This document shows, in pieces, positions 2,446-32,436 of a stretch of 64,000 bases of DNA. Within the stretch, counting starts at the first letter, position 1. Every line of letters starts with the position of its first letter. Origin of the DNA: an uncultured Methanomassiliicoccales archaeon (GTDB taxonomy: Archaea; Thermoplasmatota; Thermoplasmata; Methanomassiliicoccales; CAZOLG01); assembly GCA_964580935.1 (NCBI GenBank), contig CAZOLG010000001.1:3114-67113 (forward strand). Reading direction: 5' to 3'. Under the pieces are notes generated by a model. That model made no database searches, had not been told where the DNA came from, and worked only from the letters and a program-made list of their open reading frames with translations. Position numbers and translations under genes: made by a program.

Positions 2446-2628
2446 TGTCTCGGTAATGAGTGTGGGACATCCTCTTATCTCTGGTAGGGATCGGTCGTGT
2501 AGTCAAACGCCGTAAGCGTCACTTGAAGACTACTAAACACCCATGAACGATTTGATCTCAACTTCAGCATTAGGAATTCAGAATCTAGGAAACCCTCGAT
2601 CGGTCTTCATAGACAGTAAATACGAGGG

Positions 2629-3487: not shown

Positions 3488-3788
3488 AGAGATAGTAGTA
3501 GTATTAGTAGTTGTAATTTTGTATTGAATCCTCTGATGGGAAACGAGTCGTATATTGGTCTGTGATTGCCTGCCATTGTGTGTACCAGGATTATTCTTAG
3601 CAATGGAGCCTTAGGCGCCTCTCGATATTCCATCAAATATGGCCTTTCGCTTCAACGGGGGGCACTCGGCCCGGCCGACGGTAGTAGAGAGATCATTCTG
3701 TTGACTGCATCTGGGACTCAGATGGGACACCAATATCTTGCAGATACTCTTATCGGCATCCGTTTGATACTCTAGTGCAGAGTGCGGT

Positions 3789-13550: not shown

Positions 13551-14189
13551 ATGAGCGAAGTACTAGAGAAATTGGCGGATGCTGTTATCAATGGTAAGAT
13601 CAAAGAGGCAAAACCATTGGCGGAGGATGCCTTGGAAGAGGGAATCGATGCGAAGACGATCATTTTTGAAGGCCTCAGCGCTGGTATGGAAGTGGTGGGG
13701 GACAAGTACGAGAACAAGGAATACTTCTTGCCCCAGGTTCTGCTTTCTGCCCAGGCGATGTACGCCGCACTGGACATAGTGCTTCCAGAACTGAGCGTCG
13801 AAGACGCGGCCGCCAGTGGGAGAGTGGTAATCGGTGTCGTGGAGGGAGACGTCCACGATATCGGAAAGAACATCGTCAAGGCGATGCTCACCGGTGCAGG
13901 ACTGACCATTTTCGACCTGGGCAGGGACATACCTCTCAAGGACTACATCGCGAAGGTCAAGGAAGAGGATGCCCATATGCTGGCCACGTCCACCCTGATG
14001 ACTCCTACCCTGGCCGGTATGGAAGAACTGGAGAAGATGCTCAAGGAAGAGAACCTCAAGGGTCCTGTCAAGAGCATGATCGGTGGCGGTGCTACCTCCC
14101 GCGAATTCGCGGACAAGATCGGGGCCGACGGCTGGGCCTACGATGCTACTGAAGCCGTGAAAGTGGCCACCAAGCTGCTGGCAGAATAA
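13551..14189 (+). CDS. Methyltransferase cognate corrinoid protein (MtaC/MtbC/MtsB family)
   Basis: 212 aa. B12-binding DVHDIGKN (DxHxxG) motif, helical cap domain, and later SxL and GGG blocks. Confidence 0.9.
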   Translation: MSEVLEKLADAVINGKIKEAKPLAEDALEEGIDAKTIIFEGLSAGMEVVGDKYENKEYFLPQVLLSAQAMYAALDIVLPELSVEDAAASGRVVIGVVEGDVHDIGKNIVKAMLTGAGLTIFDLGRDIPLKDYIAKVKEEDAHMLATSTLMTPTLAGMEELEKMLKEENLKGPVKSMIGGGATSREFADKIGADGWAYDATEAVKVATKLLAE

Positions 14190-14301
14190 ATGGGTTACAC
14201 CCACCTTTCTTTTTTATATAATTCTTGTAGAACTTACCTGCGAGCGTGAGCTATACTAAAAACTATAATACATTAGCTCTCTTCCTGGGGAAAAGCGGGT
14301 A

Positions 14302-16311
14302 TTGTCCCCTGAACTGGGGATCATTCTCATGGCTGCTACATCTAAGGGTAAGGACGGCCGGAAGCTCGGACTGGGCATAGATACAGGAGGCACCTTTACG
14401 GACGCCGTCATTGTGGACCTGGACACCAAGGAAGTCATCACCAAGGCCAAGGCACCTACCAACCACCAGAACCTCTCCCTGAGCATCGACCAGGCGGTCA
14501 ACAATGTCATGGAGGCCGCAGGGATCGATATAGGCCTCATAAGACTGGTGGGCGTTTCCACCACCCTGGCCACCAATTCGGTGCTGGAGGGCAAAGGGGC
14601 TCGGGTGGGCCTCATCGGCATCGGCTGGGAGCCAAAAGAGGGGTGGGAACTGGGTGCCGACAAGGAGAGGTTCATCCAGGGTGGCCACGATCTGCAGGGC
14701 CGCACGCAGCAGCCACTGCTTGACGAAGAGGTGGAGGCCGCCATCCAGGAGATGAGCGAAGGCATAGACGCTCTGGTAGTGTCCAGTCTATTCAGCGTGT
14801 CAAACAGGTCACACGAGGAGATGGTGAGAAAGAAGGCCGAGGGGAAGCTGGATCTACCGGTGGTGGCCGGTCACGAGCTGACCGGAGAGCTGGGGGTGAA
14901 GGAGCGGACGGTCACCGCGGTGCTCAACGCCCGCCTGATCCCGGTCTTGGACTCTTTCCTGGGCGACGTTAAGAAGACGTTGGAGAGGATGGGCATAGAG
15001 GCGTCGCTCATGGTGTTCAAGGGGGACGGGAGCCTGATGAACCTGGAGACCGCTGTCAAGAGACCGGTGGAGACGATCCTGTCCGGACCCGCCGCAAGCG
15101 CGATGGGCGGAAAGAAGTTAGCCGGCCTGGACGACTGCATGGTGATCGACGTCGGCGGCACCTCCACCGACATCGCCCTCCTGGACGGAGGCTTCCCACA
15201 GATATCCCCGGAGGGGGCGGTCATCGGCGACTGGAGGACCAGAGTCAGGGCGGTGAACATGTGGACCGCTGCCATGGGCGGTGACTCCGGGATCATGGTG
15301 GACGACCGCAGGAATATCACGTTCTCTCCAAAGAGGGTCATCCCGCTTTCCATTGCCTCTTCGATGTTCGACGGTCTGCTGGAGAAGATGAAGGAGAGCC
15401 AGGAGACGGAGTTCCTGGTCATGAACCAGAGGAACCTGAAGAATCCCTCTCGTGGTGAGAAAGAGGTCTTTGAATTCGTGGAGGAGCACGGCCCTGTGAG
15501 GGTAAGAGAGATCAAGGATGGTGTTTCTGTCGTACTCGTGGACAGGTACGTGGACTCTCTGTTAGAGAAAGGCAGGATCATCGGTATCGGCCTTACCCCT
15601 ACGGACATACTGCACGTCACAGGCGATTACATGGAGGGGGACGTGGAAGCCGCCGCCTTCGGCGTTGAGAGGGCGAGGGAAAAGGCCCATATGGATGAGG
15701 AGGAGTTCTGCGACACCATCCTGAACATGGTAGCTTCCAGTATATGCAGGGAGGTGGTCAAAAAGGTCATGTCCGACGAGGTGGGGATCAACCCCGATTC
15801 TGAAGGCTCTGAAGACTCTGAGTACCTGCTGGACCTGATAAGCAAGGGGAGGCTCAGCGACATTCTGTCGTTGGACGCTACACTGCAGAACAAGATAGTG
15901 GGTATAGGTGCCCCTGTGCACGTCTACCTGCCCATGATCGAGGAGAGGTTGGGCACTGAGGTGATCATACCTGACGACCACGAGGTGGGCAACGCCGTGG
16001 GCGCCGTCTGCTCTCAGGTGGTGGAGGTCATCAAGGTGATGATCTACCCCAACATGGACCACAAGTTCTCGGTCATCGCCCCTTCGTATGGAGCGTCCCA
16101 GTACAGTCACATCGAGCAGGCCATAGGGAGCGCCAAGAGCATAGCGTCAAGGCATGTCAGGGAGAGGGCAGAAATGGCCGGTGCTAAGGACGTCAAGGTC
16201 AAGGTGACAGTCAACGAGAAGAAGTCTAAAGGGGGCGTGGTGGTCTCAGGCGAGCTCACCCACTGGGTGGAGGTCATTGCCAAGGCTGTGGGTCAGCCAA
16301 CAATCGTTTAG
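14302..16311 (+). CDS. Hydantoinase/oxoprolinase-family (ASKHA ATPase-fold) protein
   Basis: GIDTGGTFTDAV N-terminal hydantoinase motif and VIDVGGTSTDIAL second phosphate motif. The ORF track start is TTG; the ATG at 14329 is the more likely start. Confidence 0.8.
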   Translation: MSPELGIILMAATSKGKDGRKLGLGIDTGGTFTDAVIVDLDTKEVITKAKAPTNHQNLSLSIDQAVNNVMEAAGIDIGLIRLVGVSTTLATNSVLEGKGARVGLIGIGWEPKEGWELGADKERFIQGGHDLQGRTQQPLLDEEVEAAIQEMSEGIDALVVSSLFSVSNRSHEEMVRKKAEGKLDLPVVAGHELTGELGVKERTVTAVLNARLIPVLDSFLGDVKKTLERMGIEASLMVFKGDGSLMNLETAVKRPVETILSGPAASAMGGKKLAGLDDCMVIDVGGTSTDIALLDGGFPQISPEGAVIGDWRTRVRAVNMWTAAMGGDSGIMVDDRRNITFSPKRVIPLSIASSMFDGLLEKMKESQETEFLVMNQRNLKNPSRGEKEVFEFVEEHGPVRVREIKDGVSVVLVDRYVDSLLEKGRIIGIGLTPTDILHVTGDYMEGDVEAAAFGVERAREKAHMDEEEFCDTILNMVASSICREVVKKVMSDEVGINPDSEGSEDSEYLLDLISKGRLSDILSLDATLQNKIVGIGAPVHVYLPMIEERLGTEVIIPDDHEVGNAVGAVCSQVVEVIKVMIYPNMDHKFSVIAPSYGASQYSHIEQAIGSAKSIASRHVRERAEMAGAKDVKVKVTVNEKKSKGGVVVSGELTHWVEVIAKAVGQPTIV

Positions 16312-16384
16312 GAAAGATTGAAGTATCCGCGTTTAGATTTTCGACCATAGTAACCAGACTTATATTCCGAGGAGGCAAAGATTT

Positions 16385-17404
16385 ATGGCTAATGGAATGA
16401 CAGCAAAGGAAAGATGGCTCAGGGCCATGGAAATGAGGGAAGTGGACAGACCACCTGTCTGCTGTATGACTCAGAGCGCCACACTCGATCAGATGGACGC
16501 TGTGGGCGTGTACTGGCCCGATGTTCATACCAGTGGGGAGAAGATGGCCAAGCTGGCTTTGGCCGGTAACGAAGTAATAGGATTCGAATCAGTTAGGGTA
16601 CCTTACTGTCTCACCGTCGAGGCTGAGATTATGGGGGTCGAAGTGAACCTGGGAAAGAAGGACAGGACCCCGATGGTCAAGTCTCATCCTTTCAATGAAG
16701 ACACTATCGATGAGATCGAAATCCCTGAGAACATGATTGAGAAGGGAAGGGCGAAAGAAGTGGTCAAGGCGGCCGAGATCCTGAAGGACGAAGTGGGCGA
16801 TGAGTTGCCGGTTGTTGTAGGCACAACAGGTCCGTTCACCATCGCTGGACACCTGGTGGGCACAGAGAACCTGCTTCTGTGGATCGTGACCAATCCTGAC
16901 GCGGTTCACCGTGTGCTGGAGAAGGCGGCGGAGATAGCCTATCAGTATCACAAGGAGATCGACCAGGTAGGTGTGGACGCCATTCAGCAGAGTGAGCCTT
17001 CTGCTTCAACGGACATGCTCTCCGGAGAGATGTTCGATGAATTCGCTGCCCCTTACATCAAGCGCTCCCTGGAGGGCGTGAACAACGCCAAGACGGTGCT
17101 GCACATCTGTGGAGACACTGAGATACTCATAGACCACATGATCGAGACCGGTACGGACGGTCTAAGTATCGAGGAGAAGGTGGACCCCTACAAGGCCGTG
17201 GAGCTCGTGGACGGCAGGATCGCCCTGATAGGAAACATAGGTGTGGTCAACCCGCTGCTGCAGGGAACTCCGGAAGACGTGGTCGAGGAGACCAAACGGG
17301 TCGTAGACTCGGGATTCGAGATCATCAACTCCGGCTGTGGACTGGCTGCTTCAGTCCCCAAAGAGAATCTCCTGGCGATGGTGCGTACCGTCCAGGAGAT
17401 GTAA
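16385..17404 (+). CDS. Methylcobamide:CoM methyltransferase family protein (UroD fold; MtaA/MtbA/MtsA-like), copy 1
   Basis: 339 aa. Zinc-ligand pattern HICGD plus a later GCGL. Strong GGAGG about 8 nt upstream of the ATG. Confidence 0.85.
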   Translation: MANGMTAKERWLRAMEMREVDRPPVCCMTQSATLDQMDAVGVYWPDVHTSGEKMAKLALAGNEVIGFESVRVPYCLTVEAEIMGVEVNLGKKDRTPMVKSHPFNEDTIDEIEIPENMIEKGRAKEVVKAAEILKDEVGDELPVVVGTTGPFTIAGHLVGTENLLLWIVTNPDAVHRVLEKAAEIAYQYHKEIDQVGVDAIQQSEPSASTDMLSGEMFDEFAAPYIKRSLEGVNNAKTVLHICGDTEILIDHMIETGTDGLSIEEKVDPYKAVELVDGRIALIGNIGVVNPLLQGTPEDVVEETKRVVDSGFEIINSGCGLAASVPKENLLAMVRTVQEM

Positions 17405-17545
17405 GCCCCAAAAACTACTTTCTTTCTATATATTGTGTATTTTCTATATACTCTAATTATTCCACACCCTGTTCTCTATTGCTCCTAGAGTCCGTCCTCC
17501 AGCTCAAACATATTTATCCTACGTCTCTGTTCACCTTATGGTGGT

Positions 17546-18562
17546 ATGATGAGGTCCCTGGACAGAGTGATGGCTTCCCTATCGATGGAGGAGACGGACA
17601 GACCGCCGGTTACCTGCATGACCACCAGTGTCACCCTCGACCAGATGGATGCTTTGGGCGTATACTGGCCGGAGGCTCATCACGACCCGTCATTGATGGC
17701 CGGGCTGGCCAGGGCCGCTCATGACATAGTGGGCTTCGAATCGGTCCGTATCCCCTTCTGTCTGACGGTGGAAGCGGAGATACTGGGGGCGGAAGTGGAC
17801 ACTACGTCTAGTAGGCGGACCCCGATGGTCAAGTCCCACCCTCTCCGGCAGGGTGGTTATATGGACATACCGGATGATGTCGCAGGTAAGGGTAGGGCGA
17901 AGGTGACCCTTGAAGCTCTCCGCTTGCTGAAAGAAGAGGTGGGGGGCGAGGTGCCGGTGATCCCTCTGGTCACCGGTCCGTTCACACTGGCCGGTCATCT
18001 GGTGGGTATGGAGAAACTCCTGCTGTGGATCATACAGGACCCGGGGGAGGTGCACCGGGTGGTGGACTTTGCCGCCTCGTTCCTTTTGGAATACATGGGC
18101 GCACTGGACGCAGCGGGGGCGGACGTGATACTGATGAGCAATCCATCGGCCTCAGCGGACATGATCTCACCCGAGATGTACAGAGAGTTCTCCGTGCCCC
18201 AGACCCGGAGGGCAATCTCTTCCGTGGAAAACGCAAAGACCGTGCTTCACATCTGCGGGGACAGCACCTCGCTGCTGGACGGTATGGTGAGCGTGGGCAC
18301 CGATGGTCTGAGCGTGGAGGAGAAGGTGGACCCCTTCGAGGCGGTGGACATCGTGAACGGCAGGGCGGCCCTCATCGGCAACGTAGGGGTGATCAATCCC
18401 CTGCTGAACGGCACTCCTGAGCAGGTGGTTAACGCCACAGAGCGGGTGATGGAAGCGGGGTTCGAAGTGATCAACCCCGGCTGCGGTCTCGCTCCTGAGA
18501 TCCCACTGGAGAACCTGCGGGCGATGGTGCGGACGGTGAAAAGGCAGGACCGCGTTCCATAA
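17546..18562 (+). CDS. Methylcobamide:CoM methyltransferase family protein (MtaA/MtbA/MtsA-like), copy 2, tandem paralog
   Basis: 338 aa, collinear with copy 1, more than half of positions identical by eye. Same HICGD...GCGL pattern. Confidence 0.85.
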   Translation: MMRSLDRVMASLSMEETDRPPVTCMTTSVTLDQMDALGVYWPEAHHDPSLMAGLARAAHDIVGFESVRIPFCLTVEAEILGAEVDTTSSRRTPMVKSHPLRQGGYMDIPDDVAGKGRAKVTLEALRLLKEEVGGEVPVIPLVTGPFTLAGHLVGMEKLLLWIIQDPGEVHRVVDFAASFLLEYMGALDAAGADVILMSNPSASADMISPEMYREFSVPQTRRAISSVENAKTVLHICGDSTSLLDGMVSVGTDGLSVEEKVDPFEAVDIVNGRAALIGNVGVINPLLNGTPEQVVNATERVMEAGFEVINPGCGLAPEIPLENLRAMVRTVKRQDRVP

Positions 18563-18665
18563 CCTTGTCGTGTTGACCGCTGCCGTGAGGCTCCCGAAAG
18601 GCACGTTAAAAAAATTTGCATGCAATCTTAAATATTGAAATCATATATCGGAAGCGTGATAGGGC

Positions 18666-20309
18666 ATGTCTTACGGCATAGCATTGGACCTGGGTACTAG
18701 CGGCTACAGAACTCACCTGGTGGACCTGACAGGCAGAGGGAAGATCACTTCGACTTCTATCACCATGAGACACCCCCTGCCCGGTGCCAACGTGATGGAC
18801 CACCTTCACTTCTGGATAGAAAACGGTCCCGAGGTGGGCCACAAGATCGTGATGGAGACCATCGACAAGCTGATCGGACTGCACGATGTGGACCCCAAGA
18901 ATATCACCAGGATGGCGGTGTGCGGAAACCCCATCCAGCTCTCGATGTTCGAGAACATCGAGGTCAGGGACCTCGCCTACGCTGGGGAGTCGATGATCAA
19001 GAAACTGAACATCAAGAGACCTCCCCGGAAGGCCCATATCAAGTCCGCGGGCGAGGTAGGCCTGGGCGTGGTGCCTTCCGAAGCCCAAGTACTCATTCCT
19101 CCCGCTATCAGACACGAAGTAGGGGCCGATGCTCTCGCCATGATCATCAAGTCCAAGCTGCTGGAAAAGGGGGAGACGTGCATGGTCACCGATTACGGTA
19201 CCAACGCTGAAATGGGGCTATTCCACGATGGAGAACTGTTCAGCGGCAGTGCCGCTGCCGGACCGGCCCTGGAAGGACAGCACATATCCTGCGGCATGCT
19301 CGCCGCCCCCTATGCTATATCCGATCTCGGAGTGACCAACAGCAAGAAGTGGGCCAACTACGTGCTCGACAGCCAGTTGGGCGCGGTGTTTGCCTCCAAG
19401 ACCAATCCCAATAATGGGTCTTCAGAGAGACTGCAAAACATCAACGCCAGGGGGATCACCGGCACGGGCGTGGTGGCCGCGGTCGCTCTGGGCCTGGAGG
19501 AAGGCTGGATCGACCCGCCCAGGATAGGCACGTCGGACAACAGGCTCCACTTCCAGGATGGAGTGCACTTCGACGAAGAAGACCTGCTAGAGGCGGGCAG
19601 GGCGATGGGAGCCATCAGGGCAGGGCACAGGACATTGCTACACGAGGTGGGCATTGAAGACAGAGAGCTGACCGCGATGTACATGGCCGGTGCCTCTGGG
19701 ACCTATGTAGACCCCATCAAGGCACAGACGGTGGGGCTGGTACCGGGAGTCGTGGACAAGACCATCCAGGTGGGGAACACCTCGCTCATGATGGCCTACG
19801 ACATGCTGACCGATGACAGCACGCTGGACATGATGCAGGACGTGGCCGACTCCATAGCATCCAGACACATCATGTTCGCCACTTCGGACATATTCAAAGA
19901 TCTGTACGTGAACGAAGTGGCACTGTGGTCCGAGGGTATGCCCTTGGAGATGTACAACAAGATGCTCAAGAGGGCCGATCTGATGCCCCTGCCCCCCATC
20001 GAGAGGCCCAGCGAGACTCTGAAGATGGTGGACAGGGACATCCCGGTGATAGGGGACAAAGGGCTGCACACCCTGGAGAATGTGGGCGTGTTCCTGACCA
20101 TCGAACTCCCCGGTTGTACGGGCTGCCGCAAGTGCGAGACGAGGTGCCCGGAGCAGGCCCTGAAGGTCAGGGAGCTGGACGACGGCACCTTCCAGATCAG
20201 GGTGGTCACCGACCTCTGTCTGGGCACCGCGTGCAAGCAGTGCCAGACGCAGTGTTCCGAGGGTGTAATGGATTTCTCGGAACTCAGGATCAGTGAGCGT
20301 GAGGAATGA
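18666..20309 (+). CDS. ramA: Corrinoid reductive activase, RamA family (ASKHA domain plus C-terminal 2x[4Fe-4S])
   Basis: GIALDLGTSG ASKHA start. C-terminal CTGCRKCETRCP and CLGTACKQCQTQC ferredoxin motifs. 547 aa. Confidence 0.85.
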   Translation: MSYGIALDLGTSGYRTHLVDLTGRGKITSTSITMRHPLPGANVMDHLHFWIENGPEVGHKIVMETIDKLIGLHDVDPKNITRMAVCGNPIQLSMFENIEVRDLAYAGESMIKKLNIKRPPRKAHIKSAGEVGLGVVPSEAQVLIPPAIRHEVGADALAMIIKSKLLEKGETCMVTDYGTNAEMGLFHDGELFSGSAAAGPALEGQHISCGMLAAPYAISDLGVTNSKKWANYVLDSQLGAVFASKTNPNNGSSERLQNINARGITGTGVVAAVALGLEEGWIDPPRIGTSDNRLHFQDGVHFDEEDLLEAGRAMGAIRAGHRTLLHEVGIEDRELTAMYMAGASGTYVDPIKAQTVGLVPGVVDKTIQVGNTSLMMAYDMLTDDSTLDMMQDVADSIASRHIMFATSDIFKDLYVNEVALWSEGMPLEMYNKMLKRADLMPLPPIERPSETLKMVDRDIPVIGDKGLHTLENVGVFLTIELPGCTGCRKCETRCPEQALKVRELDDGTFQIRVVTDLCLGTACKQCQTQCSEGVMDFSELRISEREE

Positions 20310-20362
20310 TGTTTCTGTTGGCAGCTAGAAATTTCAGCCGGACGGTACTCCCCCTCCAATGA

Positions 20363-21250
20363 CTATTCTTGAACTGCCTGTCTGATCAACTGGTGGGAAA
20401 AGGCGGCGCTGTAGAAAGCTTTCTTCGCATACTCGATGGGACCATAGATCACGAAATCCGCACCGGCAGCTATGGGCAGTGATATTGAAGAGATATCCAC
20501 CGATCTATATAGTGAAGGCTCCTCCCCCCGCTTACGGGCCAACCCTTCCCAAGACTCCACCGCGTTATGGGGGGCGCATCCACAGGGCAGGCCCCACTTG
20601 GCCTTGGCCACGAATATACCCCTCAGGGCTGAGCCCGCGTTCTGGTCCATGGACATTACTGCTAAGTCTAAAAGCGGCCGCTCGATCCCGTACCGCTGGC
20701 CCCTGTCAATGAGTCCCTCGTCCAGGGTCTTGCCTCCGTCCTCCAGCAGGTAGATCTTACCTTTCAACGAAGGGTCAGAAGGATCGAAGGCCAGCAGGAC
20801 GGCGGACTCAATTCCCAGCTCCTGCAGTCTCTCCAGCTCCTCGTCCTCAGTGCCATAGTGTACTGTGTTGTATATGATCCTGTTCTCAACGCCCATCTCT
20901 CTGGCCCTGCGCGCTCCCGACAGCTTCACCTCAACGCTGGGGGAGTCCAGTAGTAGCGGTAGCGCAGTTTCTTCGGAAACTGTCTCCAGGTACGAGGCCG
21001 CTGCTTCCTCCGTCTCGGCGTAGAGCATCAGAGCTCCGGCGCCTTCGGTCTCCCCCATGACCTGGTGCAGAGTATCCAACCTCTTCTGGAGAGCTTCTTG
21101 GTCAACAATGCCCTCTTTCCTGTTCTCCACCACGCTGTGCTGCGGGTAGAACAGTGAGCCTATCAGTACCGGCGGTCGTTTGCCCGGCTGCCCTCCGAAC
21201 TGGACATTCTCTATCTCGAATATCTTCTGGTCCTTCTGGAAAGTAAACAT
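20363..21250 (-). CDS. MtrH/MtxH-like methylcobamide:pterin methyltransferase
   Basis: MFTFQKDQKIFEIENVQFGGQPGKRPPVLIGSLFY, LLLDS, FDPSDPSLKGK and DGGKT align by eye with MtrH. Confidence 0.85.
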   Translation of the reverse strand: MFTFQKDQKIFEIENVQFGGQPGKRPPVLIGSLFYPQHSVVENRKEGIVDQEALQKRLDTLHQVMGETEGAGALMLYAETEEAAASYLETVSEETALPLLLDSPSVEVKLSGARRAREMGVENRIIYNTVHYGTEDEELERLQELGIESAVLLAFDPSDPSLKGKIYLLEDGGKTLDEGLIDRGQRYGIERPLLDLAVMSMDQNAGSALRGIFVAKAKWGLPCGCAPHNAVESWEGLARKRGEEPSLYRSVDISSISLPIAAGADFVIYGPIEYAKKAFYSAAFSHQLIRQAVQE

Positions 21251-21262
21251 CTCACTCAGCTC

Positions 21263-22066
21263 CTAGTCTGCGCCCGTCAAGTACGATTTCATCCTGCTCA
21301 CCAGCTCGATGGAGGGTACGACAGAGACCTGGCCATCGATGGGGTCGATGATGGTTCTGAACTCTTCTGAGACCAGCACCAGTGAGGCGGAAGTGTTCAG
21401 CTTCTGGCTGGGCATCCTCAGCATCTGAGATACGAACTGATCGGAGAGTTCGTTCATCCGCCTCCCCGCCTCATCACTGTCGTCCACGAGCGCGTCCAAC
21501 TGGGGGACGTATACCCCCTTGCTGAAGGGGCCCGGATCCCGGGCCTCACAATCTTGGATGGCGTCCACCAGCTCTGTAGTCCTCTCTCTATCAAAGTCGT
21601 ATTTGGGGTTCCACTCGATGATCTCGTCTACCTCTTTTGGGTGCAGCAGGTCGATCACTTCCACCTGCTCTCTGAACCTCTCCACCGTCTCTCGATCGAT
21701 GTTGCAGATGTAGGGGATGGCCGCTCTCGTATCCCGGATCTTCCCACTCTCGTCGACCCCCCTCTTGATCAGAGAGAGCAGGGCATCTCCCGGGAAATGG
21801 CCGAATTCTTCACGGCCGCATACGGTAATGAACCTGATGTTGGGGTTGGTGACCACATTCACTATGATGCGTTCGATGCCCATGTTCTCGGTCTTGAATG
21901 TGCCCAGAAGGGAGAAGCGGTCCTGGTGCAGGTCCACCTCTCCTCTACCCACTACGGCCACGGCCACAGGATGGTCTTTTTCCCCTACCCGATAGTTCCC
22001 AGGAACGGGAGGCCAATCAGTCTTCGGTTCTCCCTCCAACGCTCTCTCCTCCCCAGTGTAGTACAA
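21263..22066 (-). CDS. MtrA/MtxA-like corrinoid-binding protein, soluble (no C-terminal TM helix)
   Basis: WPPVPGNYRVG, KTENMGIERII, TNPNIRF, the GH cobalt-ligand region, AAIPY and ERFREQVEV match MtrA blocks. The C-terminus is hydrophilic. Confidence 0.8.
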   Translation of the reverse strand: MYYTGEERALEGEPKTDWPPVPGNYRVGEKDHPVAVAVVGRGEVDLHQDRFSLLGTFKTENMGIERIIVNVVTNPNIRFITVCGREEFGHFPGDALLSLIKRGVDESGKIRDTRAAIPYICNIDRETVERFREQVEVIDLLHPKEVDEIIEWNPKYDFDRERTTELVDAIQDCEARDPGPFSKGVYVPQLDALVDDSDEAGRRMNELSDQFVSQMLRMPSQKLNTSASLVLVSEEFRTIIDPIDGQVSVVPSIELVSRMKSYLTGAD

Positions 22067-22188: not shown

Positions 22189-22902
22189 ATGAAGGGTATT
22201 AAAATGCTCAATTATGCGGAGATATCTGATAAACTCAAGACCATTTTAGGATTGGAGAGCGAACCAGTAGCGGTGACCCTTCTGAAACCTGGTGATGAAG
22301 TCCCCGAAGGCTACATGGCCCCTGAGAAAGGGCTCAGTCACTGCCAGTCAATCATGAAGGCCAGGAAGGGAGAGTCGCTGGTGATCAGTGCTGACAACCA
22401 AAAGTGCTCTGTGGGCGCTTCCAGCCTGGGCTTGATCTCCCTGCCCGACAAGATCCGTTCGGGCCATTTCCACCACGGGATAGGGATGTTCGAGTCTCCA
22501 GCATCCGCGAAGCGCATGATCGACGAGAGGTTCGAGCTGGACCCTGGTACCTACGTGGCCACTGCAGTCAGCCCCCTCAAGGACGCAAAGCTGGAGCCCG
22601 ATGTAGTAGTGCTGAGCGGACTCCCCGAGCAAGTTTATTGGTTGATACCTGCTTCCACTTACCGCAAGGGAGGACGGGTCAAGGTAGAAACGGCAGCATT
22701 TCAGGCAACGTGTGTGGATGCGACCCTGATCCCAATGATTACCAGTCGGATTAATCTCTCACTGGGTTGCTACGGCTGCAGGAGGAGGACGGATATAGCC
22801 GAAGAAGAGATGCTGGCCGGGATCCCCCCGAACCTGCTGGAAGAGATCGTGGAGGCTCTGGAGGAGATGGCCCCCGGGCCGATGGCCAAGGCCAGGAGTT
22901 AG
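22189..22902 (+). CDS. DUF169-family protein
   Basis: LGLESEPVAVTLLKPGDEVPEGY...SHCQSIMKARKGE pattern typical of DUF169 (COG2043). Confidence 0.7.
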   Translation: MKGIKMLNYAEISDKLKTILGLESEPVAVTLLKPGDEVPEGYMAPEKGLSHCQSIMKARKGESLVISADNQKCSVGASSLGLISLPDKIRSGHFHHGIGMFESPASAKRMIDERFELDPGTYVATAVSPLKDAKLEPDVVVLSGLPEQVYWLIPASTYRKGGRVKVETAAFQATCVDATLIPMITSRINLSLGCYGCRRRTDIAEEEMLAGIPPNLLEEIVEALEEMAPGPMAKARS

Positions 22903-23155: not shown

Positions 23156-23629
23156 TTGGACAAGGTGGATATCAGGATCCTCCGCATGCTTAAAGAGGAT
23201 TCCCGTCAGAGTATGGCTAACATAGCCAAAGAGATCGGGATTTCAAAGGCCACGGTCAGCAGGCGCATATCCCGGATGGAAGACGAAGGCATTATCTCCG
23301 GCTTCACTGTTACCACAGATATCACCAAGATGGGAGGGATGAGGGCCATCATGCTGCTGGAGACTGCGGGCTCCTCCCTGACCAGCGTGGTCGATGACCT
23401 TTCCAAGTTCGAAGAGATTGAGTATATCCACAAGCTTTTCGGCGACCACAGCCTGCTGTGTGAGATCTACGTGACCGCGGTGGATAGCCTTTATGAGTTG
23501 ATACAGAACAGGATCATGACCATACCCAACGTGAAGAACGTAGAGGTGGACATCATGATCGAGAGGATAGCCACACACCCGGAGGCGGAGCTGAACTTCA
23601 TAGCCTCCTCGGGCGCGCTTTCCAAGTGA
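23156..23629 (+). CDS. Lrp/AsnC-family transcriptional regulator
   Basis: DKVDIRILRMLKEDSRQSMANIAKEIGISKATVSRRISRMEDEGII HTH plus a C-terminal RAM/ACT-like domain. Confidence 0.85.
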   Translation: MDKVDIRILRMLKEDSRQSMANIAKEIGISKATVSRRISRMEDEGIISGFTVTTDITKMGGMRAIMLLETAGSSLTSVVDDLSKFEEIEYIHKLFGDHSLLCEIYVTAVDSLYELIQNRIMTIPNVKNVEVDIMIERIATHPEAELNFIASSGALSK

Positions 23630-23685
23630 CCGTTTTTGCGCTCATCCTGAATAATTTAATAGAAGGTCACGTTATTTGTGTCCCC

Positions 23686-24897
23686 ATGAAACTCGGTCCC
23701 ACGCCAAAGAGGTACACTGAGGACAACCACAGGGCGGTTCCTCCTTGGAAGACTCTGGAGCGGGTGGGGCCGCTGGCAGACAGGATCGGTCTCGAAGAGC
23801 TGGAGGACATCACCGATCTTGACCGGTTGAAGATCCCGGTCTTCTCCTGCATCAGATCTTCGACCGTCGAGGGTGCTGCGTGCGTTCATAACGGCAAAGG
23901 GGCCTCCAAAGAACAGGCCAAGACCTCGGCCATTATGGAGGCACTGGAACGGTACAGCGGGGAGATGAGAGATCCCCAGGTCGAGCCCGACTTCGTCCAG
24001 CAGATGATGTCCTCCCAGAACTGCGTCGATCCCAGGACACTCATCCTGCCGGAAATGACCGCTTTTCATCTGATGCATCACAGGATCGGCTGGGTGAAGG
24101 GTTACGAGCTGTTCGAGGAGGAGGAAATATGGGTACCGGCCAACGCCGTCTTCCATCCTTACAATTCCTCCCACTTGAGACTATTCCGCTCCAACTCCAA
24201 CGGTCTGGCATCTGGGAACACCATTGAAGAGGCCGTCCTGCACGGACTGTGCGAACTGATAGAGAGGGACGCCTGGTCGATCAGCGAGTTCAGGGGCGGG
24301 GTGAACGGCAAGCTCGTGGATGAAACTGACAACAAGATCATATCCGACCTTATCGAGAGGTTCAAGTCGAACGGGGTGGAGATCCACATGTCTGACATCA
24401 CCAGCGATATCGGGATCCCCACGGTGGCAGCGGCCGGTGACGACACGGTGAGCAAGGATCCGGCCATGCTCACTATCGGAGTGGGAACCCATCTGAACCC
24501 TGAGATAGCTGCCATCAGGGCGCTCACCGAAGTGGCCCAGAGCCGCGCTACCCACTTGTACAGGCAGCAAAAATTCGATCAGAGCGGGCCGAGGATAGGG
24601 TACGAGAAGGTGAAGGAAATGAATAAGATGTGGTTTTCCTCTTCTGTCGATGAACTGGGGCTCACAGACCTCCCTTCCTATGATTCCATGGATATTTACG
24701 AGGATGTTCAGACGGTGCTGGACAAAATGAGAAAGGCGGGAATTGAGAAGGCGGTGGTGGTCGATCTGACCGATGAAGAGCTTGGCGTACCTGTAGTGCG
24801 GACCATCGTTCCGTGGTTGGAGGTGTACACCATGGACCCGCAGCGCATGGGTCCGCGGCTGAGAGGTGACACTCCCTCTGTCACGGGTCATTTCTGA
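23686..24897 (+). CDS. ycaO: YcaO-domain protein (methanogenesis marker 1 type, McrA thioglycine-forming family)
   Basis: NGKGASKEQAKTSAIMEALERYSGE and SNGLASGNTIEEAVLHGLCELIERDA YcaO blocks. The ORF opens at 23626, but the ATG at 23686 (MKLGPTPKRY) is the likely start. Confidence 0.85.
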   Translation: MKLGPTPKRYTEDNHRAVPPWKTLERVGPLADRIGLEELEDITDLDRLKIPVFSCIRSSTVEGAACVHNGKGASKEQAKTSAIMEALERYSGEMRDPQVEPDFVQQMMSSQNCVDPRTLILPEMTAFHLMHHRIGWVKGYELFEEEEIWVPANAVFHPYNSSHLRLFRSNSNGLASGNTIEEAVLHGLCELIERDAWSISEFRGGVNGKLVDETDNKIISDLIERFKSNGVEIHMSDITSDIGIPTVAAAGDDTVSKDPAMLTIGVGTHLNPEIAAIRALTEVAQSRATHLYRQQKFDQSGPRIGYEKVKEMNKMWFSSSVDELGLTDLPSYDSMDIYEDVQTVLDKMRKAGIEKAVVVDLTDEELGVPVVRTIVPWLEVYTMDPQRMGPRLRGDTPSVTGHF

Positions 24898-24912
24898 ACC
24901 CAGAGTCTGCCC

Positions 24913-24948
24913 TGATGTAACATAGTTTCATGATGAAACATAGTTTCA
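24913..24948. promoter_or_regulatory. Tandem 18-bp direct repeat containing a 15-nt palindrome, between ycaO and mcrB
   Basis: tgatgtaacatagtttca (24913-24930) and tgatgaaacatagtttca (24931-24948), 17/18 identical. The junction forms GTTTCATgATGAAAC (24925-24939). Confidence 0.4.
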
Positions 24949-25344
24949 ATCGGACGCAACATTGGATTGCCCCCGCTTTCCGCTGGCAGGGACGAGGAGA
25001 TCCTGTTTGATTCATTACATATCGTTGACTTAAGATCGATCGGGGAATTATGAAAGGAGGTTTTGATGCCGGATTACATCCTTCACAATACGGTAACAAA
25101 GGAATAGCCATTGGGATAATACAACCAATGGCCTCTCTTATAGGCAGGATTTGGAGGCCAAATTGACGATTGTTATACCTACTGGTTATCATCAATTGTT
25201 TATGGGTGGATAGTCCATCCATCCACAATCAAACTTATAAGCTCCTTTGTGTTACAATGTAAATGGAGCCGGAAGGGAGGTCGTTGCATCGAAAGGAGGC
25301 TTTTTGTAACGATGAGAACTTCCGGACAAAATAGGAGGTAACAG

Positions 25345-26670
25345 ATGGCGAAATACAAGGACAAGTTGGACTTGTATGACGACAGGGGCAAGCTGATCGA
25401 ATCAGATGTGCCGCTTGAAGCCATTAGTCCTTTGCACAACAAAGCTATCAAGAAAGTCCATTCACTGGCAAAGCGAACTGTCGCCGTGAACCTAGACGGG
25501 ATTGAGAAAGCTCTCAGGACCGGGAAGCTAGGTGGATTGGGAGTGCAGATCCGAGGAAAAGAGATCGAGGCTCCCGTGGTGGAAAAGGCTGACGAGATAG
25601 CTGCCAAAGTCAAGGACATGGTGAAAGTTGCTGATGGTGATGACACCGAAGTAGAGCTGCTTGAGGACGGCAAGAAGATGATTGTTGTCGTTCCAACAGC
25701 GCGGCTCGATGCTGGTGTCGAGTACACCACAGGATTTACAGCGGCCGCTGCTGCGGTCACCCAAGCCGTCATTGACACGTTCGACATAGACATGTTTCGA
25801 GCGAACATGGTCAAGGGAGCAGTATGGGGAAGATATCCTCAGACCCTGGACTTCATGGGATCCAACCTCAAGACCATTCTTGAGGTGCCCCAGAAGAACG
25901 AGGGTGCAGGATATGCATTGAGGAATATCATGTCCAACCATATTGTGGCCCTCACTGGGAAGAACGCGATGAATGCGGCAGCTTTGTCGTCTATATTTGA
26001 GCAAACAGCGATGTTCGAAATGGGAGACGCGATAGGTCCGTTCGAGAGGATGCACCTGTTGGGTCTGGCCATTCAGGGATTGAACGCTAACAATATTGTG
26101 TACGAAACGGTCAAGGAGAACGGGAAAACTGGAACTGTCGGTACAGTGGTCGAGTCCATTGTTGGCAGAGCCATCGAGGACGATGTAATCAAGGTGAAGG
26201 AGAAACTACCCTCTGGATACAAGGTCTACACCACAGATGACATGGCCATGTGGAATGCGTATGTGTCAGCAGGGATGCTGGCTGCTATCATGGTCAATGT
26301 GGGTGCGGCCAGAGCATCACAGGGTGTACCTTCAACCGTACTGTATTACAACGACCTCGTTGAACACGAGACTGGTCTGCCTGGTGTGGACTTCGGTCGT
26401 TCCATGGGGACTTCCGTTGGTATGTCTTTCTTCTCCCACTCAATTTACGGAGGAGGAGGGCCAGGTCTGTTCCATGGTAACCACATCGTGACTCGACACT
26501 CCAAGGGATTCCTTATACCGGTGATTGCCGCCGGTTGTGCTCTTGACGCCGGAACTCAAATGTTCTCCCCAGAGAGGACATCTGGATTGATAGAAAAGGT
26601 ATTTGGTGACATACCTGAATTTAGTTCACCCATCAAGAATGTCGGAGCTGAGGCTAAAAAGCTCAAATGA
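25345..26670 (+). CDS. mcrB: Methyl-coenzyme M reductase beta subunit
   Basis: 441 aa. [17 protein letters not shown] start and conserved McrB blocks. AGGAGG RBS upstream. Confidence 0.97.
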
Positions 26671-26679
26671 GGTGGCAAA

Positions 26680-27105
26680 ATGACGGATGTCTCACCCGCA
26701 GAAGAATACGTTCCGCTCCCTGAAATACAGATTTTCCCGGAGCGACTACTATCCGCTGACACTACCGAGAAACTACTACGACGACTGCGTCAGATCAAAG
26801 ACGTAAGGCAGATCAACGTTCATGGAGAGAGCCTGCCCGAGAAGGTCAGGTACGGCCCAGGAACGGGTCTCGATGTCAAACATCCAGAAAGAAAGAAGAT
26901 CAAGGTAGACGAGGAAGAAATGGAACTGCAGGTACAGGTTGGACGGGTGTTCGTTGAGGTCAACGACATCGACAACGTTCAACACGTTCTGGAGAAGATC
27001 GAGGAGGTATGCGAGGAAATGCTGTCCTTTGATTTCTCTCTGGAGGTGGGGAGATATTCGAAGTTTAAGCCCACCGTATCCGACTACAAGAAAGGATTGA
27101 GGTGA
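26680..27105 (+). CDS. mcrD: Methyl-coenzyme M reductase operon protein D
   Basis: 141 aa. IQIFPERLLSADTTEKLL, HGESLPEKVRYGPGTG and VQVGRVFVE are typical of McrD. Confidence 0.92.
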   Translation: MTDVSPAEEYVPLPEIQIFPERLLSADTTEKLLRRLRQIKDVRQINVHGESLPEKVRYGPGTGLDVKHPERKKIKVDEEEMELQVQVGRVFVEVNDIDNVQHVLEKIEEVCEEMLSFDFSLEVGRYSKFKPTVSDYKKGLR

Positions 27106-27111
27106 TTAAAT

Positions 27112-27885: not shown

Positions 27886-27889
27886 TTCA

Positions 27890-32313: not shown

Positions 32314-32436
32314 CGTTACAGCAGCTGTCGATGGACTGATCTGAAAAGACCCTGTGGGAAACGTCCACAGAGATAATCGGGGAAAGATTTATGTTTAGCA
32401 TAGTCGTACGCTGGATTATATGCCTGAGGGGTCCTA

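What the first reader, a model, noticed from the sequence alone, without database searches (positions are those of the whole stretch)
13551..22066. Corrinoid methyltransferase cluster with no recognisable substrate-specific MT1
Gene order seen in the sequence:
- Plus strand: corrinoid protein (DxHxxG), hydantoinase-like ASKHA protein, two tandem zinc-motif MtaA/MtbA/MtsA-family proteins, RamA activase.
- Minus strand, convergent with RamA: soluble MtrA-like then MtrH-like genes.

Established knowledge: methanol and methylamine pathways need MtaB, MtmB, MtbB or MttB. None is present here, and there is no in-frame-UAG gene. In the methylthiol system, MtsA (the same UroD fold as MtaA) performs both half-reactions with the corrinoid protein MtsB. 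Bacteria-like O-demethylase systems in archaea combine a UroD-like MT1, a corrinoid protein, an MtrH-like MT2 and an activase.

Inference, with two options:
- The tandem paralogs split MT1 and MT2 roles for a methylated thiol or methoxylated substrate.
- The substrate methyltransferase is one of the unassigned proteins.

The substrate cannot be read from the sequence.
Basis: partly seen in the sequence, partly recalled or inferred. Interest (0 to 1): 0.65.

Follow-up and report, generated by a model that had tools for sequence, protein, structure and literature searches.

The report
Known methyl-transfer hub beside mcr genes
This is the usual gene neighbourhood that feeds methyl groups to coenzyme M next to the methane-forming enzyme genes in Methanomassiliicoccales methanogens; the "missing" substrate-specific enzyme is normally encoded elsewhere in these genomes, so the locus is largely ordinary, although an orphan vitamin-B12 protein and an ATPase-like partner in it are still unexplained.

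Summary

The window comes from a Methanomassiliicoccales archaeon. The cluster lies 3 kb from mcrBDGA. It is this order's conserved backbone: corrinoid protein, HyuA-like ATPase, Mta/MtbA-type MT2, RamA, DUF169, Lrp, YcaO, mcr. Borrel et al. 2014 catalogued a matching gene set as mtxC1 ("uncertain methyl-compound"), mta/mtbA1 and MAP. The soluble MtrA/MtrH pair was described in 2018.

Both UroD paralogues pass the curated methylcobalamin:CoM methyltransferase subfamily cut-offs. They group with this order's Mta/MtbA proteins and with Methanosarcina mazei MtaA, not with MtsA. In this order MT2 genes are never linked to MT1 genes.

Two things remain open. One is the role of the highly conserved orphan corrinoid protein. 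The other is the "hydantoinase": I found this stand-alone HyuA-like family repeatedly inside corrinoid methyltransferase clusters in distant, probably bacterial, lineages.

Verdict: a new member of a known kind, of moderate-to-low interest.

The parts
13551..14189 (+). Orphan corrinoid protein (CoP). By position it matches the order-wide 'mtxC1' of Borrel 2014.
   Evidence: Carries PF02607 plus PF02310, with DVHDIG at residues 100-105. NCBIfam scores are pyl_corrinoid 205.6 (cut-off 215.3), MtgC 194, MtbC 181 and MtaC 142. It is 65-81% identical across more than 120 Methanomassiliicoccales protein clusters. It sits upstream of the MT2 gene in L002, L005, L085, L088, L090, L092, L094 and L096.
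14329..16311 (+). Stand-alone HyuA-like ASKHA ATPase ('hydantoinase-like'). It is an accessory protein of unknown role and not a methyltransferase.
   Evidence: Carries Hydant_A_N plus Hydantoinase_A. ASKHA motifs are DTGGTFTD at residue 18, DVGGTSTD at 274 and GNAVGA at 554. The AF2 model has pLDDT 86.7, and its best PDB matches are N-methylhydantoinase, acetone carboxylase beta and caprolactamase alpha, with TM about 0.6. No HyuB lies next to it in the sampled loci. Homologues sit inside corrinoid methyltransferase clusters in distant lineages.
16385..17404 (+). UroD1: methylcobamide:CoM methyltransferase (MT2, Mta/MtbA type). It is the conserved MT2 at this locus.
   Evidence: URO-D scores 270 bits, PRK06252 369 (cut-off 244), TIGR01463 322 (cut-off 235), MtaA_Meth 362 (cut-off 400) and MtbA 272 (cut-off 600). 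The PDB search gives 254 bits to M. mazei MtaA 4AY7. The zinc motif is HIC at 240 and GCG at 317. It is 49-76% identical to the single MT2 at the same position in relatives.
17546..18562 (+). UroD2: a tandem paralogue of UroD1, also MT2 type, arising from a lineage-restricted duplication.
   Evidence: PRK06252 scores 364, MtaA_Meth 337 and MtbA 258. The PDB search gives 246 bits to 4AY7. It is 56.6% identical to UroD1. An ortholog was found only in L002, at 62% identity. It branches inside the order's Mta/MtbA clade.
18666..20309 (+). RamA, the ATP-dependent reductive activase of corrinoid proteins.
   Evidence: TIGR04270 scores 698.8 bits against a cut-off of 500. It has Raco_middle, RACo_C_ter and a C-terminal Fer4 dicluster at residues 484-533.
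20363..21250 (-). Soluble MtrH-like methyl-pterin:corrinoid methyltransferase.
   Evidence: PF02007 scores 252 bits. TIGR01114 scores 251 (cut-off 271) and MtgA 194 (cut-off 550). In the PDB search it scores 184 bits to an MtrH chain of the Mtr complex and 166 bits to Desulfitobacterium hafniense methylcorrinoid:THF methyltransferase MtgA.
21263..22066 (-). Soluble MtrA-like corrinoid protein with an order-specific C-terminal domain in place of the membrane anchor. The public gene call is 258 aa, starting 9 codons downstream.
   Evidence: PF04208 covers residues 13-150. The PDB search gives 125 bits to MtrA 5LAA, with the GH motif aligned at residue 89. A family of about 255 aa was found only in Methanomassiliicoccales, with the conserved extension MLRMPSE...VPS...SYLTG. 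In the AF2 model the N-domain matches the MtrA fold (TMt 0.86) and the whole-chain search returned no hit beyond the MtrA domain. There is no membrane helix.
22189..22902 (+). DUF169 protein, divergently transcribed from MtrA. It is part of the conserved backbone and its function is unknown.
   Evidence: PF02596 scores 207 bits. There is no PDB sequence match. It is present between RamA or MtrA and Lrp-YcaO-mcr in most related loci, including the MtrAH-less loci L090, L094 and L096.

Best explanation
The region is the Methanomassiliicoccales 'methyl-CoM supply' neighbourhood that flanks the mcr operon.

**Proposed working of the parts**
- UroD1 is the housekeeping MT2. It takes the methyl group from methyl-Co(III) corrinoid proteins that are loaded by MT1 enzymes encoded elsewhere, and passes it to coenzyme M. 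Those MT1 enzymes are most likely MtaB with MtaC. Pyrrolysine-type methylamine MT1s are unlikely, because TAG is a common stop codon here.
- UroD2 is a lineage-specific duplicate of the same enzyme type.
- RamA uses ATP and low-potential electrons to return oxidised Co(II) carriers to Co(I).
- The soluble MtrH moves a methyl group between a pterin (H4F or H4MPT) and a corrinoid carrier. The carrier is the anchor-less MtrA-like protein or the orphan CoP. There is no sodium pumping. This links the methyl-corrinoid and methyl-CoM pool to the C1-pterin pool, as Speth and Orphan proposed in 2018. Because no MtrE is present, a soluble UroD-family enzyme is the likely partner on the CoM side.
- The orphan CoP and the HyuA-like ATPase are old, conserved members of this backbone, and their exact roles are not known.

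**Shown versus inferred**
- Shown: gene identities, family memberships, synteny and its conservation.
- Inferred: which carrier serves which transferase, the direction of methyl flow, and the roles of CoP, Hyu and DUF169.
For: **Source organism.** The window holds an archaeal RNase P, and mcrBDGA lies 3 kb away. Close homologues are named Methanomassiliicoccales.

**Family tests.**

**Synteny.**
- The order CoP-Hyu-UroD-RamA-(MBL)-MtrH-MtrA-DUF169-Lrp-YcaO-mcr recurs in L002, L005, L007 and L088/L089.
- The same backbone without MtrAH occurs in L085-87, L090, L094 and L096.
- MtrAH lies next to RamA and a UroD gene in 11 of 17 species-level loci.

**Published catalogue.**
- Borrel 2014 Table S10 lists mtxC1, mta/mtbA1 and mcrB with consecutive or nearby accessions in Ca. 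Methanomassiliicoccus intestinalis and M. luminyensis.
- Borrel 2013 reports that the order's mtaA/mtbA genes are never next to MT1 genes.
- Speth and Orphan 2018 and Zinke 2020 describe mtrAH with the unusual MtrA C-terminus in the environmental clade.

**UroD placement.** The tree and identities place UroD1 and UroD2 with Mta/MtbA and away from MtsA.

**Stop codons.** TAG ends 16 of 44 genes. The figure is 1.6% in Ca. Methanomethylophilus alvus and 4-5% in Methanosarcina, both of which decode pyrrolysine.

**Precedent.** MtrH-type enzymes can work on B12-domain corrinoid proteins, as MtoA does with MtoC and MtgA with MtgC.
Against: - The rest of this genome could not be searched, so the presence of mtaBC elsewhere is not shown.
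- Orthology of CoP with mtxC1 rests on position and accession adjacency. The M. luminyensis mtxC1 sequence was not retrievable.
- An MT2/activase locus gives no reason for an orphan corrinoid protein that is 65-81% conserved across the order, so part of the locus is unexplained.
- No Methanomassiliicoccales Mta/MtbA has been characterised biochemically in the papers read.
- My tree is neighbour-joining without bootstraps. It has only one biochemically characterised reference, M. mazei MtaA.
- Both UroD proteins score below the Methanosarcina MtaA equivalog cut-off of 400.
Confidence: 0.6

Rival explanations
1. MT1-independent system of the MtsAB/MtpAC type. The orphan CoP and one or both UroD paralogues alone would move a methyl group from a methylated thiol (DMS, methanethiol, MMPA) or a similar donor to CoM. 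One paralogue, or one bifunctional enzyme, would do both half-reactions.
For: - CoP and a UroD gene are neighbours in every relative examined.
- No MT1 is present in the window.
- Precedents exist in MtsA/MtsB and MtpA/MtpC, where a UroD-fold enzyme plus a corrinoid protein suffice (literature cited).
- The tandem duplication could allow a split of roles.
Against: - The order has its own distinct MtsA/MtsB pair. M. luminyensis MtsA is 19% identical to UroD1 and UroD2, and its MtsB is 47% identical to CoP.
- Ca. M. intestinalis lacks mtsAB but keeps mtxC1 and mta/mtbA1.
- UroD1 and UroD2 pass the MT2 subfamily cut-offs, whereas MtsA scores only 53-62 bits.
- UroD2 exists only in the window and in L002, so a two-paralogue mechanism cannot explain the order-wide CoP-UroD pair.
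Confidence: 0.15
2. Dedicated soluble methyl-pterin:CoM methyltransferase. MtrH would act as the 'MT1' with methyl-H4F or methyl-H4MPT as substrate. MtrA-like and/or CoP would be the carrier, one UroD paralogue would be the CoM-side transferase that replaces MtrE, and RamA (plus Hyu) would be the maintenance factors. CoP and UroD2 would then exist mainly for this bridge rather than for catabolic methyl-CoM supply.
For: - MtrAH sits next to RamA and UroD genes in 11 of 17 loci.
- Outside the order, 64 MtrA-homologue loci have MtrH but no RamA, CoP or DUF169.
- In the rearranged locus L091, Hyu abuts MtrH-MtrA and a UroD-family gene lies 4 kb away.
- CoP scores best against MtgC, and MtrH resembles MtgA, a known working pair.
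- No MtrE or other membrane subunit is present.
Against: - CoP, Hyu, UroD1, RamA and DUF169 persist, with high conservation, in loci that lack MtrAH (L085-87, L090, L094, L096). The three cultured-lineage genomes are not reported to carry mtr genes, and they list mtxC1. Their main role therefore cannot depend on MtrAH.
- In relatives, the UroD type that tracks MtrAH is a divergent clade that is absent from this window.
Confidence: 0.2
3. A new substrate-specific MT1 is hidden among the unassigned proteins, namely the HyuA-like protein or DUF169.
For: Both are conserved in the backbone and have no assigned function.
Against: - Hyu has the complete HyuA-type ASKHA ATPase fold and its nucleotide motifs.
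- Hyu occurs in clusters that already encode MttB-family MT1 enzymes.
- DUF169 has no similarity to any methyltransferase family in Pfam, NCBIfam or PDB sequences.
Confidence: 0.03

Closest known systems
mtxC1 - mta/mtbA1 - MAP (RamA) genes near mcr in M. luminyensis, Ca. M. intestinalis and Ca. M. alvus (Borrel et al. 2013, 2014)
   Same: It has an orphan corrinoid protein of 'uncertain methyl-compound', an Mta/MtbA-type MT2 that is not linked to any MT1, and an activase. All sit close to mcrBDGA. The same backbone is seen in Methanomassiliicoccaceae MAG loci L085-87.
   Different: The window additionally carries a tandem second MT2, the HyuA-like gene between CoP and MT2, the soluble MtrAH pair and DUF169. 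Orthology to the named accessions is inferred from position and was not shown by sequence.
Soluble mtrAH of the 'Lake Pavin'/environmental Methanomassiliicoccales (MALP; Speth & Orphan 2018; Zinke et al. 2020)
   Same: It has MtrA plus MtrH without MtrB-G. MtrA has an unusual C-terminal extension and MtrH is divergent. A role as a methyl-H4F:CoM link has been proposed.
   Different: The passages of those papers that I read do not mention the conserved placement between RamA and DUF169, nor the neighbouring MT2, CoP or Hyu genes. The function remains hypothetical.
MtsA/MtsB (Methanosarcina barkeri) and MtpA/MtpC (Methanosarcina acetivorans) methylthiol systems
   Same: A UroD-fold zinc enzyme is encoded next to a small corrinoid protein, with no separate MT1.
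   Different: UroD1 and UroD2 fall in the MT2 (Mta/MtbA) subfamily and are 19% identical to the order's own MtsA. The M. barkeri and M. acetivorans sequences themselves were not available for comparison.
Mto O-demethylase system of Methermicoccus shengliensis (MtoA MtrH-like, MtoB, MtoC, MtoD; Kurth et al. 2021)
   Same: The component classes match: an MtrH-like pterin methyltransferase, a B12-domain corrinoid protein, an ATP-dependent activase and a UroD-superfamily transferase.
   Different: MtoB is an MtvB-related protein of about 47 kDa, not a 339-aa MtaA type. MtoD has an N-terminal 2Fe-2S cluster, whereas RamA here has C-terminal 4Fe-4S clusters. No MtvB-like gene is present in the window.
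Glycine-betaine methyltransferase cluster of strain DCMF (MtgB/MtgC/MtgA plus a 668-aa 'N-methylhydantoinase A' of unknown role; Holland et al. 2022)
   Same: A HyuA-like protein of about 660-690 aa is encoded between the corrinoid protein and the methyltransferase genes. In DCMF it is co-induced with them, with log2 fold change -7.2. The same arrangement occurs in metagenome loci L103, L104, L107 and L116.
   Different: Those clusters carry MttB-family MT1s and H4F-dependent MT2s. Here the partners are MtaA-type MT2s, RamA and MtrAH. Identity to the window protein is only about 35-38%.

Membership tests
MtaA/MtbA methylcobamide:CoM methyltransferase (MT2, UroD fold) | Matches the curated subfamily models above their cut-offs | tested here: met
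   PRK06252 scores 369 and 364 against a cut-off of 244. TIGR01463 scores 322 and 315 against 235.4.
MtaA/MtbA methylcobamide:CoM methyltransferase (MT2, UroD fold) | Zinc ligands His-x-Cys ... Cys | tested here: met
   UroD1 has HIC at 240 and GCG at 317. UroD2 has HIC at 235 and GCG at 312. These align with the M. mazei MtaA motifs.
MtaA/MtbA methylcobamide:CoM methyltransferase (MT2, UroD fold) | Reaches the Methanosarcina MtaA or MtbA equivalog cut-off | tested here: not met
   MtaA_Meth scores 362 and 337 against 400. MtbA scores 272 and 258 against 600. This is expected for a distant order. Assignment to MtaA versus MtbA stays open, as in Borrel 2013.
MtaA/MtbA methylcobamide:CoM methyltransferase (MT2, UroD fold) | Methyl transfer from a methyl-corrinoid to CoM | not testable with these tools
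   Needs an enzyme assay.
MtsA/MtsB or MtpA/MtpC bifunctional methylthiol system | The UroD-fold enzyme groups with MtsA or MtpA | tested here: inconclusive
   UroD1 and UroD2 are 19% identical to M. luminyensis MtsA and lie on a separate branch.
MtsA/MtsB or MtpA/MtpC bifunctional methylthiol system | A cognate corrinoid protein is encoded next to the UroD-fold enzyme | tested here: met
   CoP lies 2.2 kb upstream of UroD1, with Hyu between them. The arrangement is conserved in relatives.
Substrate-specific MT1 (MtaB, MtmB, MtbB, MttB superfamily) | Any Pfam match among the scanned window ORFs of at least 150 aa | tested here: not met
   No such hit.
RamA reductive activase | TIGR04270 above its cut-off, RACo ASKHA domain and C-terminal 2x[4Fe-4S] | tested here: met
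   TIGR04270 scores 698.8 bits against 500. RACo_C_ter scores 218 bits. Fer4_7 covers residues 484-533.
Membrane Mtr complex (MtrA-H) | MtrB-G subunits and a C-terminal membrane helix on MtrA | tested here: not met
   Only MtrA and MtrH are present, and the flanking genes are RamA and DUF169. The maximum hydropathy is 0.98. A soluble alpha/beta extension is predicted instead.
Membrane Mtr complex (MtrA-H) | MtrA cobalamin-binding domain with the conserved histidine | tested here: met
   The PDB search gives 125 bits to 5LAA. The GH motif is at residue 89 of the 267-aa ORF and is invariant in the family alignment (H81 in the 258-aa call). The fold matches with TMt 0.86.
Mto O-demethylase system | MtvB-related O-demethylase of about 47 kDa and an activase with an N-terminal 2Fe-2S cluster | tested here: not met
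   Both UroD proteins are 338-339 aa and of MtaA type. The activase is of RamA type.
Hydantoinase/oxoprolinase/acetone-carboxylase (HyuA/HyuB) enzymes | HyuA-type fold and ASKHA nucleotide motifs | tested here: met
   Foldseek TM is about 0.6 to N-methylhydantoinase, acetone carboxylase beta and caprolactamase alpha. The motifs are listed.
Hydantoinase/oxoprolinase/acetone-carboxylase (HyuA/HyuB) enzymes | A partner HyuB-type subunit is encoded alongside | tested here: not met
   There is no Hydantoinase_B gene among the scanned window ORFs or among the Hyu-adjacent ORFs scanned in related loci. All NCBIfam equivalog scores are far below their cut-offs.

The most novel reading that the evidence does not exclude
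The stand-alone HyuA-like ASKHA ATPase is a so far unrecognised, widely distributed accessory factor of corrinoid-dependent methyltransferase systems in both archaea and bacteria. One possible role is an ATP-driven chaperone or reactivase for the corrinoid carrier that complements or replaces RamA/RACo. In this locus it would work with the orphan CoP and the soluble MtrH as part of a pump-less methyl-pterin/corrinoid/CoM shuttle. The CoM-side step normally done by MtrE would be taken over by a soluble UroD-family enzyme.
Probability: 0.25. Interest if true: 0.65.

Novelty: new member of a known kind. Interest (0 to 1): 0.35.

Why it matters
As an MT1-less pathway the finding does not hold up. 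It is the standard MT2/activase neighbourhood of this order, and the literature has already catalogued it.

It still touches two real gaps:

- **The orphan corrinoid protein.** It is conserved at 65-81% identity across all Methanomassiliicoccales sampled. Since 2014 it has been listed only as 'uncertain methyl-compound'.
- **The soluble MtrAH pair.** How it connects to CoM without MtrE is unknown. This bears on how methyl-reducing methanogens obtain biosynthetic C1 units, and on whether some can disproportionate methanol or use acetate.

The recurring HyuA-like protein is a concrete, cheap-to-test candidate for a missing maintenance factor of B12-dependent methyl transfer. Such systems matter for methane formation and for gut trimethylamine and quaternary-amine metabolism.

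Tried and rejected
**Look-ups that led nowhere**
- Exact-sequence look-ups of the Hyu protein from either start codon found nothing.
- The UroD1 look-up gave only a 2-kb contig.
- The source genome is not among the species representatives scanned. The best MtrA match there is 51% identical. A genome-wide search for mtaB, mttB or pyl genes was therefore impossible.
- A cluster look-up of ten CoP homologues gave no link to the published accessions WP_019176763 or AGN26884.
- The stored M. luminyensis proteome is truncated and lacks the mcr-adjacent genes. It did supply reference sequences for MtsA, MtsB, an MtaC-like protein and one Mta/MtbA.
- Sequences of characterised MtbA, MtsA, MtpA, CmuA, MtoB and MtvB could not be obtained.

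**Ideas considered and dropped**
- Hyu as an MT1: its fold and motifs are those of an ATPase.
- Hyu as a chance neighbour: it recurs with corrinoid genes in rearranged and distant contexts.
- DUF169 as a specific partner of MtrAH: L090, L094 and L096 keep DUF169 without MtrAH.
- CoP as a methylamine corrinoid protein, which is the JGI name for it: TAG is a frequent stop codon here, and the environmental clade is reported as methanol-specific.

**Tools not applied or uninformative**
- The whole-chain fold search with the MtrA-like model returned no hit beyond the MtrA domain, so the C-terminal extension stays unassigned.
- The sigma-70 promoter scan was not used because the organism is archaeal. 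I only noted TATA-like boxes and T-runs in the intergenic regions.

Full report
**Observation**

| Gene | Coordinates | Key evidence |
|---|---|---|
| Corrinoid protein (CoP) | 13551-14189 + | DVHDIG at residues 100-105 |
| HyuA-like ASKHA protein (Hyu) | 14329-16311 + | Hydant_A_N + Hydantoinase_A |
| UroD1 | 16385-17404 + | HIC...GCG zinc motif |
| UroD2 | 17546-18562 + | HIC...GCG zinc motif |
| RamA | 18666-20309 + | TIGR04270 699 bits, cut-off 500 |
| MtrH-like | 20363-21250 - | PF02007, 252 bits |
| MtrA-like | 21263-22066 - | PF04208 over residues 13-150 |

- The two minus-strand genes converge on RamA.
- The MtrA-like protein has no hydrophobic helix.
- Pfam scans of the ORFs of at least 150 aa judged to be genes found no MtaB, MtmB, MtbB or MttB family member.

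**Where the window comes from**

- The window carries an archaeal RNase P RNA.
- mcrB-D-G-A lies at 25345-29554, YcaO at 23626-24897, and a methanogenesis-marker cluster further on.
- The nearest homologues of Hyu, MtrA-like and CoP that carry names are almost all 'Methanomassiliicoccales archaeon'.
- The source is therefore a Methanomassiliicoccales genome. It is not one of the species representatives I could scan, where the best MtrA match is 51% identical.

**The cluster is a conserved backbone, not a special island**

- The same order recurs in a JGI contig (L002), in GCA_014361295.1 (L088/L089) and, for the stretches those loci cover, in L005 and L007. The order is RtcB, DUF835, OTCase, DHH, RNase H, phosphoesterase, (rSAM), CoP, Hyu, UroD, RamA, (metallo-beta-lactamase), MtrH, MtrA, DUF169, Lrp, YcaO, mcr.
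- Loci L085-87, L090, L094 and L096 keep CoP, UroD, RamA and Lrp and/or YcaO beside mcr but lack MtrAH. L090, L094 and L096 also keep Hyu and DUF169.
- MtrAH is therefore a variable insert between RamA and DUF169.
- Where MtrAH is present, it adjoins RamA and a UroD gene in 11 of 17 species-level loci.
- Outside the order, 64 MtrA-homologue loci carry MtrH but no RamA, CoP or DUF169.

**The two UroD proteins**

- Both pass the curated subfamily cut-offs for methylcobalamin:CoM methyltransferase: PRK06252 scores 369 and 364 against 244.
- Both score about 80-90 bits higher on the MtaA model than on the MtbA model, although both fall below the Methanosarcina equivalog cut-offs.
- The best solved structure for each is M. 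mazei MtaA 4AY7, at 254 and 246 bits.
- I used reference sequences recovered from the M. luminyensis proteome supplement of Borrel 2014. Against these, UroD1 and UroD2 are 52% and 48% identical to an Mta/MtbA protein, 37-38% to M. mazei MtaA, and 19% to the MtsA that sits beside MtsB.
- UroD1 is the ortholog of the single MT2 at this position in relatives, at 49-76% identity.
- UroD2 is 56.6% identical to UroD1 and has an ortholog only in L002, so it is a lineage-restricted duplicate.
- Caveat: the trees are neighbour-joining without bootstraps.

**What the literature already says**

- Borrel et al. 2013 report that mtaA/mtbA homologues in this order lie apart from all MT1 genes and cannot be assigned to MtaA or MtbA.
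- Borrel et al. 2014, Table S10, list an orphan corrinoid gene 'mtxC1' ('uncertain methyl-compound') in all three genomes studied. In Ca. M. intestinalis and M. luminyensis its accession numbers are adjacent or nearly adjacent to mta/mtbA1 and close to mcrB. That matches the backbone seen here, although I could not confirm orthology by sequence.
- Kroninger et al. 2017 call the mcr-proximal gene mtbA, without biochemical evidence.
- Speth and Orphan 2018 described mtrAH in the Lake Pavin genome. They noted the unusual MtrA C-terminal extension and proposed a methyl-H4F:CoM methyltransferase. Later surveys found mtrAH across the environmental clade, which is reported as methanol-specific.

**Pyrrolysine**

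- TAG terminates 16 of 44 genes in the window.
- In constitutive pyrrolysine decoders the figure is 1.6% for Ca. M. alvus and 4-5% for Methanosarcina.
- This argues against Pyl-dependent methylamine MT1s in this organism. It also argues against reading CoP as a methylamine corrinoid protein, despite the automatic names given to it.

**MtrA-like and MtrH-like**

- The MtrA-like protein belongs to a family of about 255 aa that I found only in this order. It has a conserved soluble C-terminal extension.
- Its N-domain models as the MtrA cobalamin-binding fold with the conserved histidine. The whole-chain fold search returned no hit beyond that domain, so the extension is unassigned.
- MtrH-like is about equally similar to MtrH of the Mtr complex and to the D. 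hafniense methylcorrinoid:H4F methyltransferase MtgA.
- CoP scores best on MtgC models.
- MtrH-type enzymes are known to act on B12-domain corrinoid proteins, as MtoA does with MtoC. Either carrier is therefore plausible here.

**The 'hydantoinase'**

- The protein has ASKHA nucleotide motifs. Its full-length model (pLDDT 86.7) matches the ATP-binding subunits of N-methylhydantoinase, acetone carboxylase and caprolactamase. It is not a methyltransferase.
- No HyuB partner is encoded next to it or next to sampled relatives.
- It is not a chance neighbour:
  - In the rearranged locus L091 it abuts MtrH-MtrA.
  - In distant metagenome loci (34-38% identity), homologues lie between corrinoid proteins, pterin-binding MT2s, MttB-family MT1s or a RACo-like activase. 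These loci are L098, L103, L104, L107, L114, L116 and L129.
  - A corrinoid-methyltransferase gene lies within 5 kb in 5 of 7 loci at 39% identity or more, 10 of 35 loci at 34-39%, and 3 of 40 loci below 34%.
- Holland et al. 2022 found a 668-aa 'N-methylhydantoinase A' of unknown role inside the glycine-betaine methyltransferase cluster of strain DCMF. It was co-induced with the cluster, with log2 fold change -7.2.
- From my own knowledge, not tested here: known B12-enzyme reactivases (DdrA, EutA, GlmL) and the ATPase domain of RACo/RamA are all ASKHA proteins. An ATP-dependent role in maintaining the corrinoid carrier is therefore a reasonable guess.

**Most likely working of the locus**

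- UroD1, and its duplicate UroD2, transfer methyl groups from corrinoid proteins loaded elsewhere to CoM. MtaB/MtaC is the most likely loader.
- RamA re-reduces inactive carriers.
- MtrH with MtrA-like and/or CoP links the methyl pool to a C1-pterin pool without ion pumping. A soluble UroD-family enzyme would stand in for MtrE.
- The roles of CoP, Hyu and DUF169 are inferred at best.
- I put 0.6 on this reading, 0.2 on a dedicated methyl-pterin:CoM system as the main purpose, 0.15 on an MtsAB-like MT1-free system, and 0.03 on a hidden MT1.

**Verdict**

- The locus is a new member of a known, already catalogued kind.
- The residual interest lies in the unexplained orphan corrinoid protein and in the recurrent HyuA-like accessory protein.

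Noticed in passing
window 14329-16311; L103 9986-12046; L107 1680-3713; L104 198-2225; L116 596-2662; L091 8001-9965: A stand-alone HyuA-like ASKHA protein of about 650-690 aa recurs inside corrinoid methyltransferase clusters far outside Methanomassiliicoccales. Its neighbours there are a corrinoid protein, a pterin-binding MT2, MttB-family MT1s or a RACo-like activase. In one rearranged Methanomassiliicoccales locus it lies directly next to MtrH-MtrA. A homologue is co-induced with the glycine-betaine methyltransferases in strain DCMF, and no function has been assigned to it.
   Followed up: yes
L002 14362-15387 (-); L009, L012, L015, L016, L019, L020; L091 14671-15711 (-); L090 11238-12097: A divergent UroD clade carries the motif H-N-C...PGCE. 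It scores 130-150 bits on PRK06252, below the cut-off of 244. An intact copy is found in 8 of 13 loci that have MtrAH and in none of the 4 that lack it. In L090, which has lost MtrAH, the gene is split into two fragments. The clade is absent from the window. It could be the CoM-side partner of soluble MtrA.
   Followed up: partly
window, 44 called genes: TAG is the stop codon of 16 of 44 genes (36%). This argues against constitutive pyrrolysine decoding and hence against Pyl-type methylamine methyltransferases in this organism.
   Followed up: partly
window 21263-21800 (C-terminal ~110 residues of the MtrA-like protein): A conserved soluble extension (MLRMPSE...VPS...SYLTG) replaces the membrane anchor of MtrA. 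It is predicted as a helix, three strands and a helix. It was found only in Methanomassiliicoccales, and the whole-chain fold search gave no PDB hit for it.
   Followed up: partly
window 24898-25344: No plus-strand ORF of at least 80 aa lies between YcaO and mcrB, so no TfuA gene follows YcaO here. Related loci L085-87 and L090 do have YcaO followed by TfuA.
   Followed up: no
M. luminyensis proteome (Borrel 2014 supplement), Mmc.PEG.109-113: A second locus holds a CoP paralogue (PEG.112, 64% identical to the window CoP). Its neighbours are a divergent UroD-like protein, a HemN-like radical SAM protein, an Lrp regulator and a PaaK/F390-synthetase-like ligase.
   Followed up: no
L164 9995-16173: A more distant Hyu homologue (31% identity) lies 2 kb upstream of a methylmalonyl-CoA mutase with a B12-binding domain. 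This is another B12 enzyme in the neighbourhood of this family.
   Followed up: no
window 31297-41330: A methanogenesis-marker cluster holds DUF2111, a double ABC ATPase (possibly component A2, by my own reading), a weak McrC-like protein, DUF2102, a BcrAD/BadFG-type ATPase, DUF2113 and McrC. It includes a 504-aa ORF (36243-37757) with no Pfam match.
   Followed up: no
window 1-4000: This stretch has low G+C (39-47%, against about 55% elsewhere). It carries an HNH endonuclease-like ORF and a DUF2204 nucleotidyltransferase-like ORF, so it may be foreign or mobile DNA.
   Followed up: no
window 5446-6639, 54880-55461, 62201-62674: There are three DUF835 proteins in one 64-kb window. The first is also conserved at the same position in related loci, between RtcB and OTCase.
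   Followed up: no
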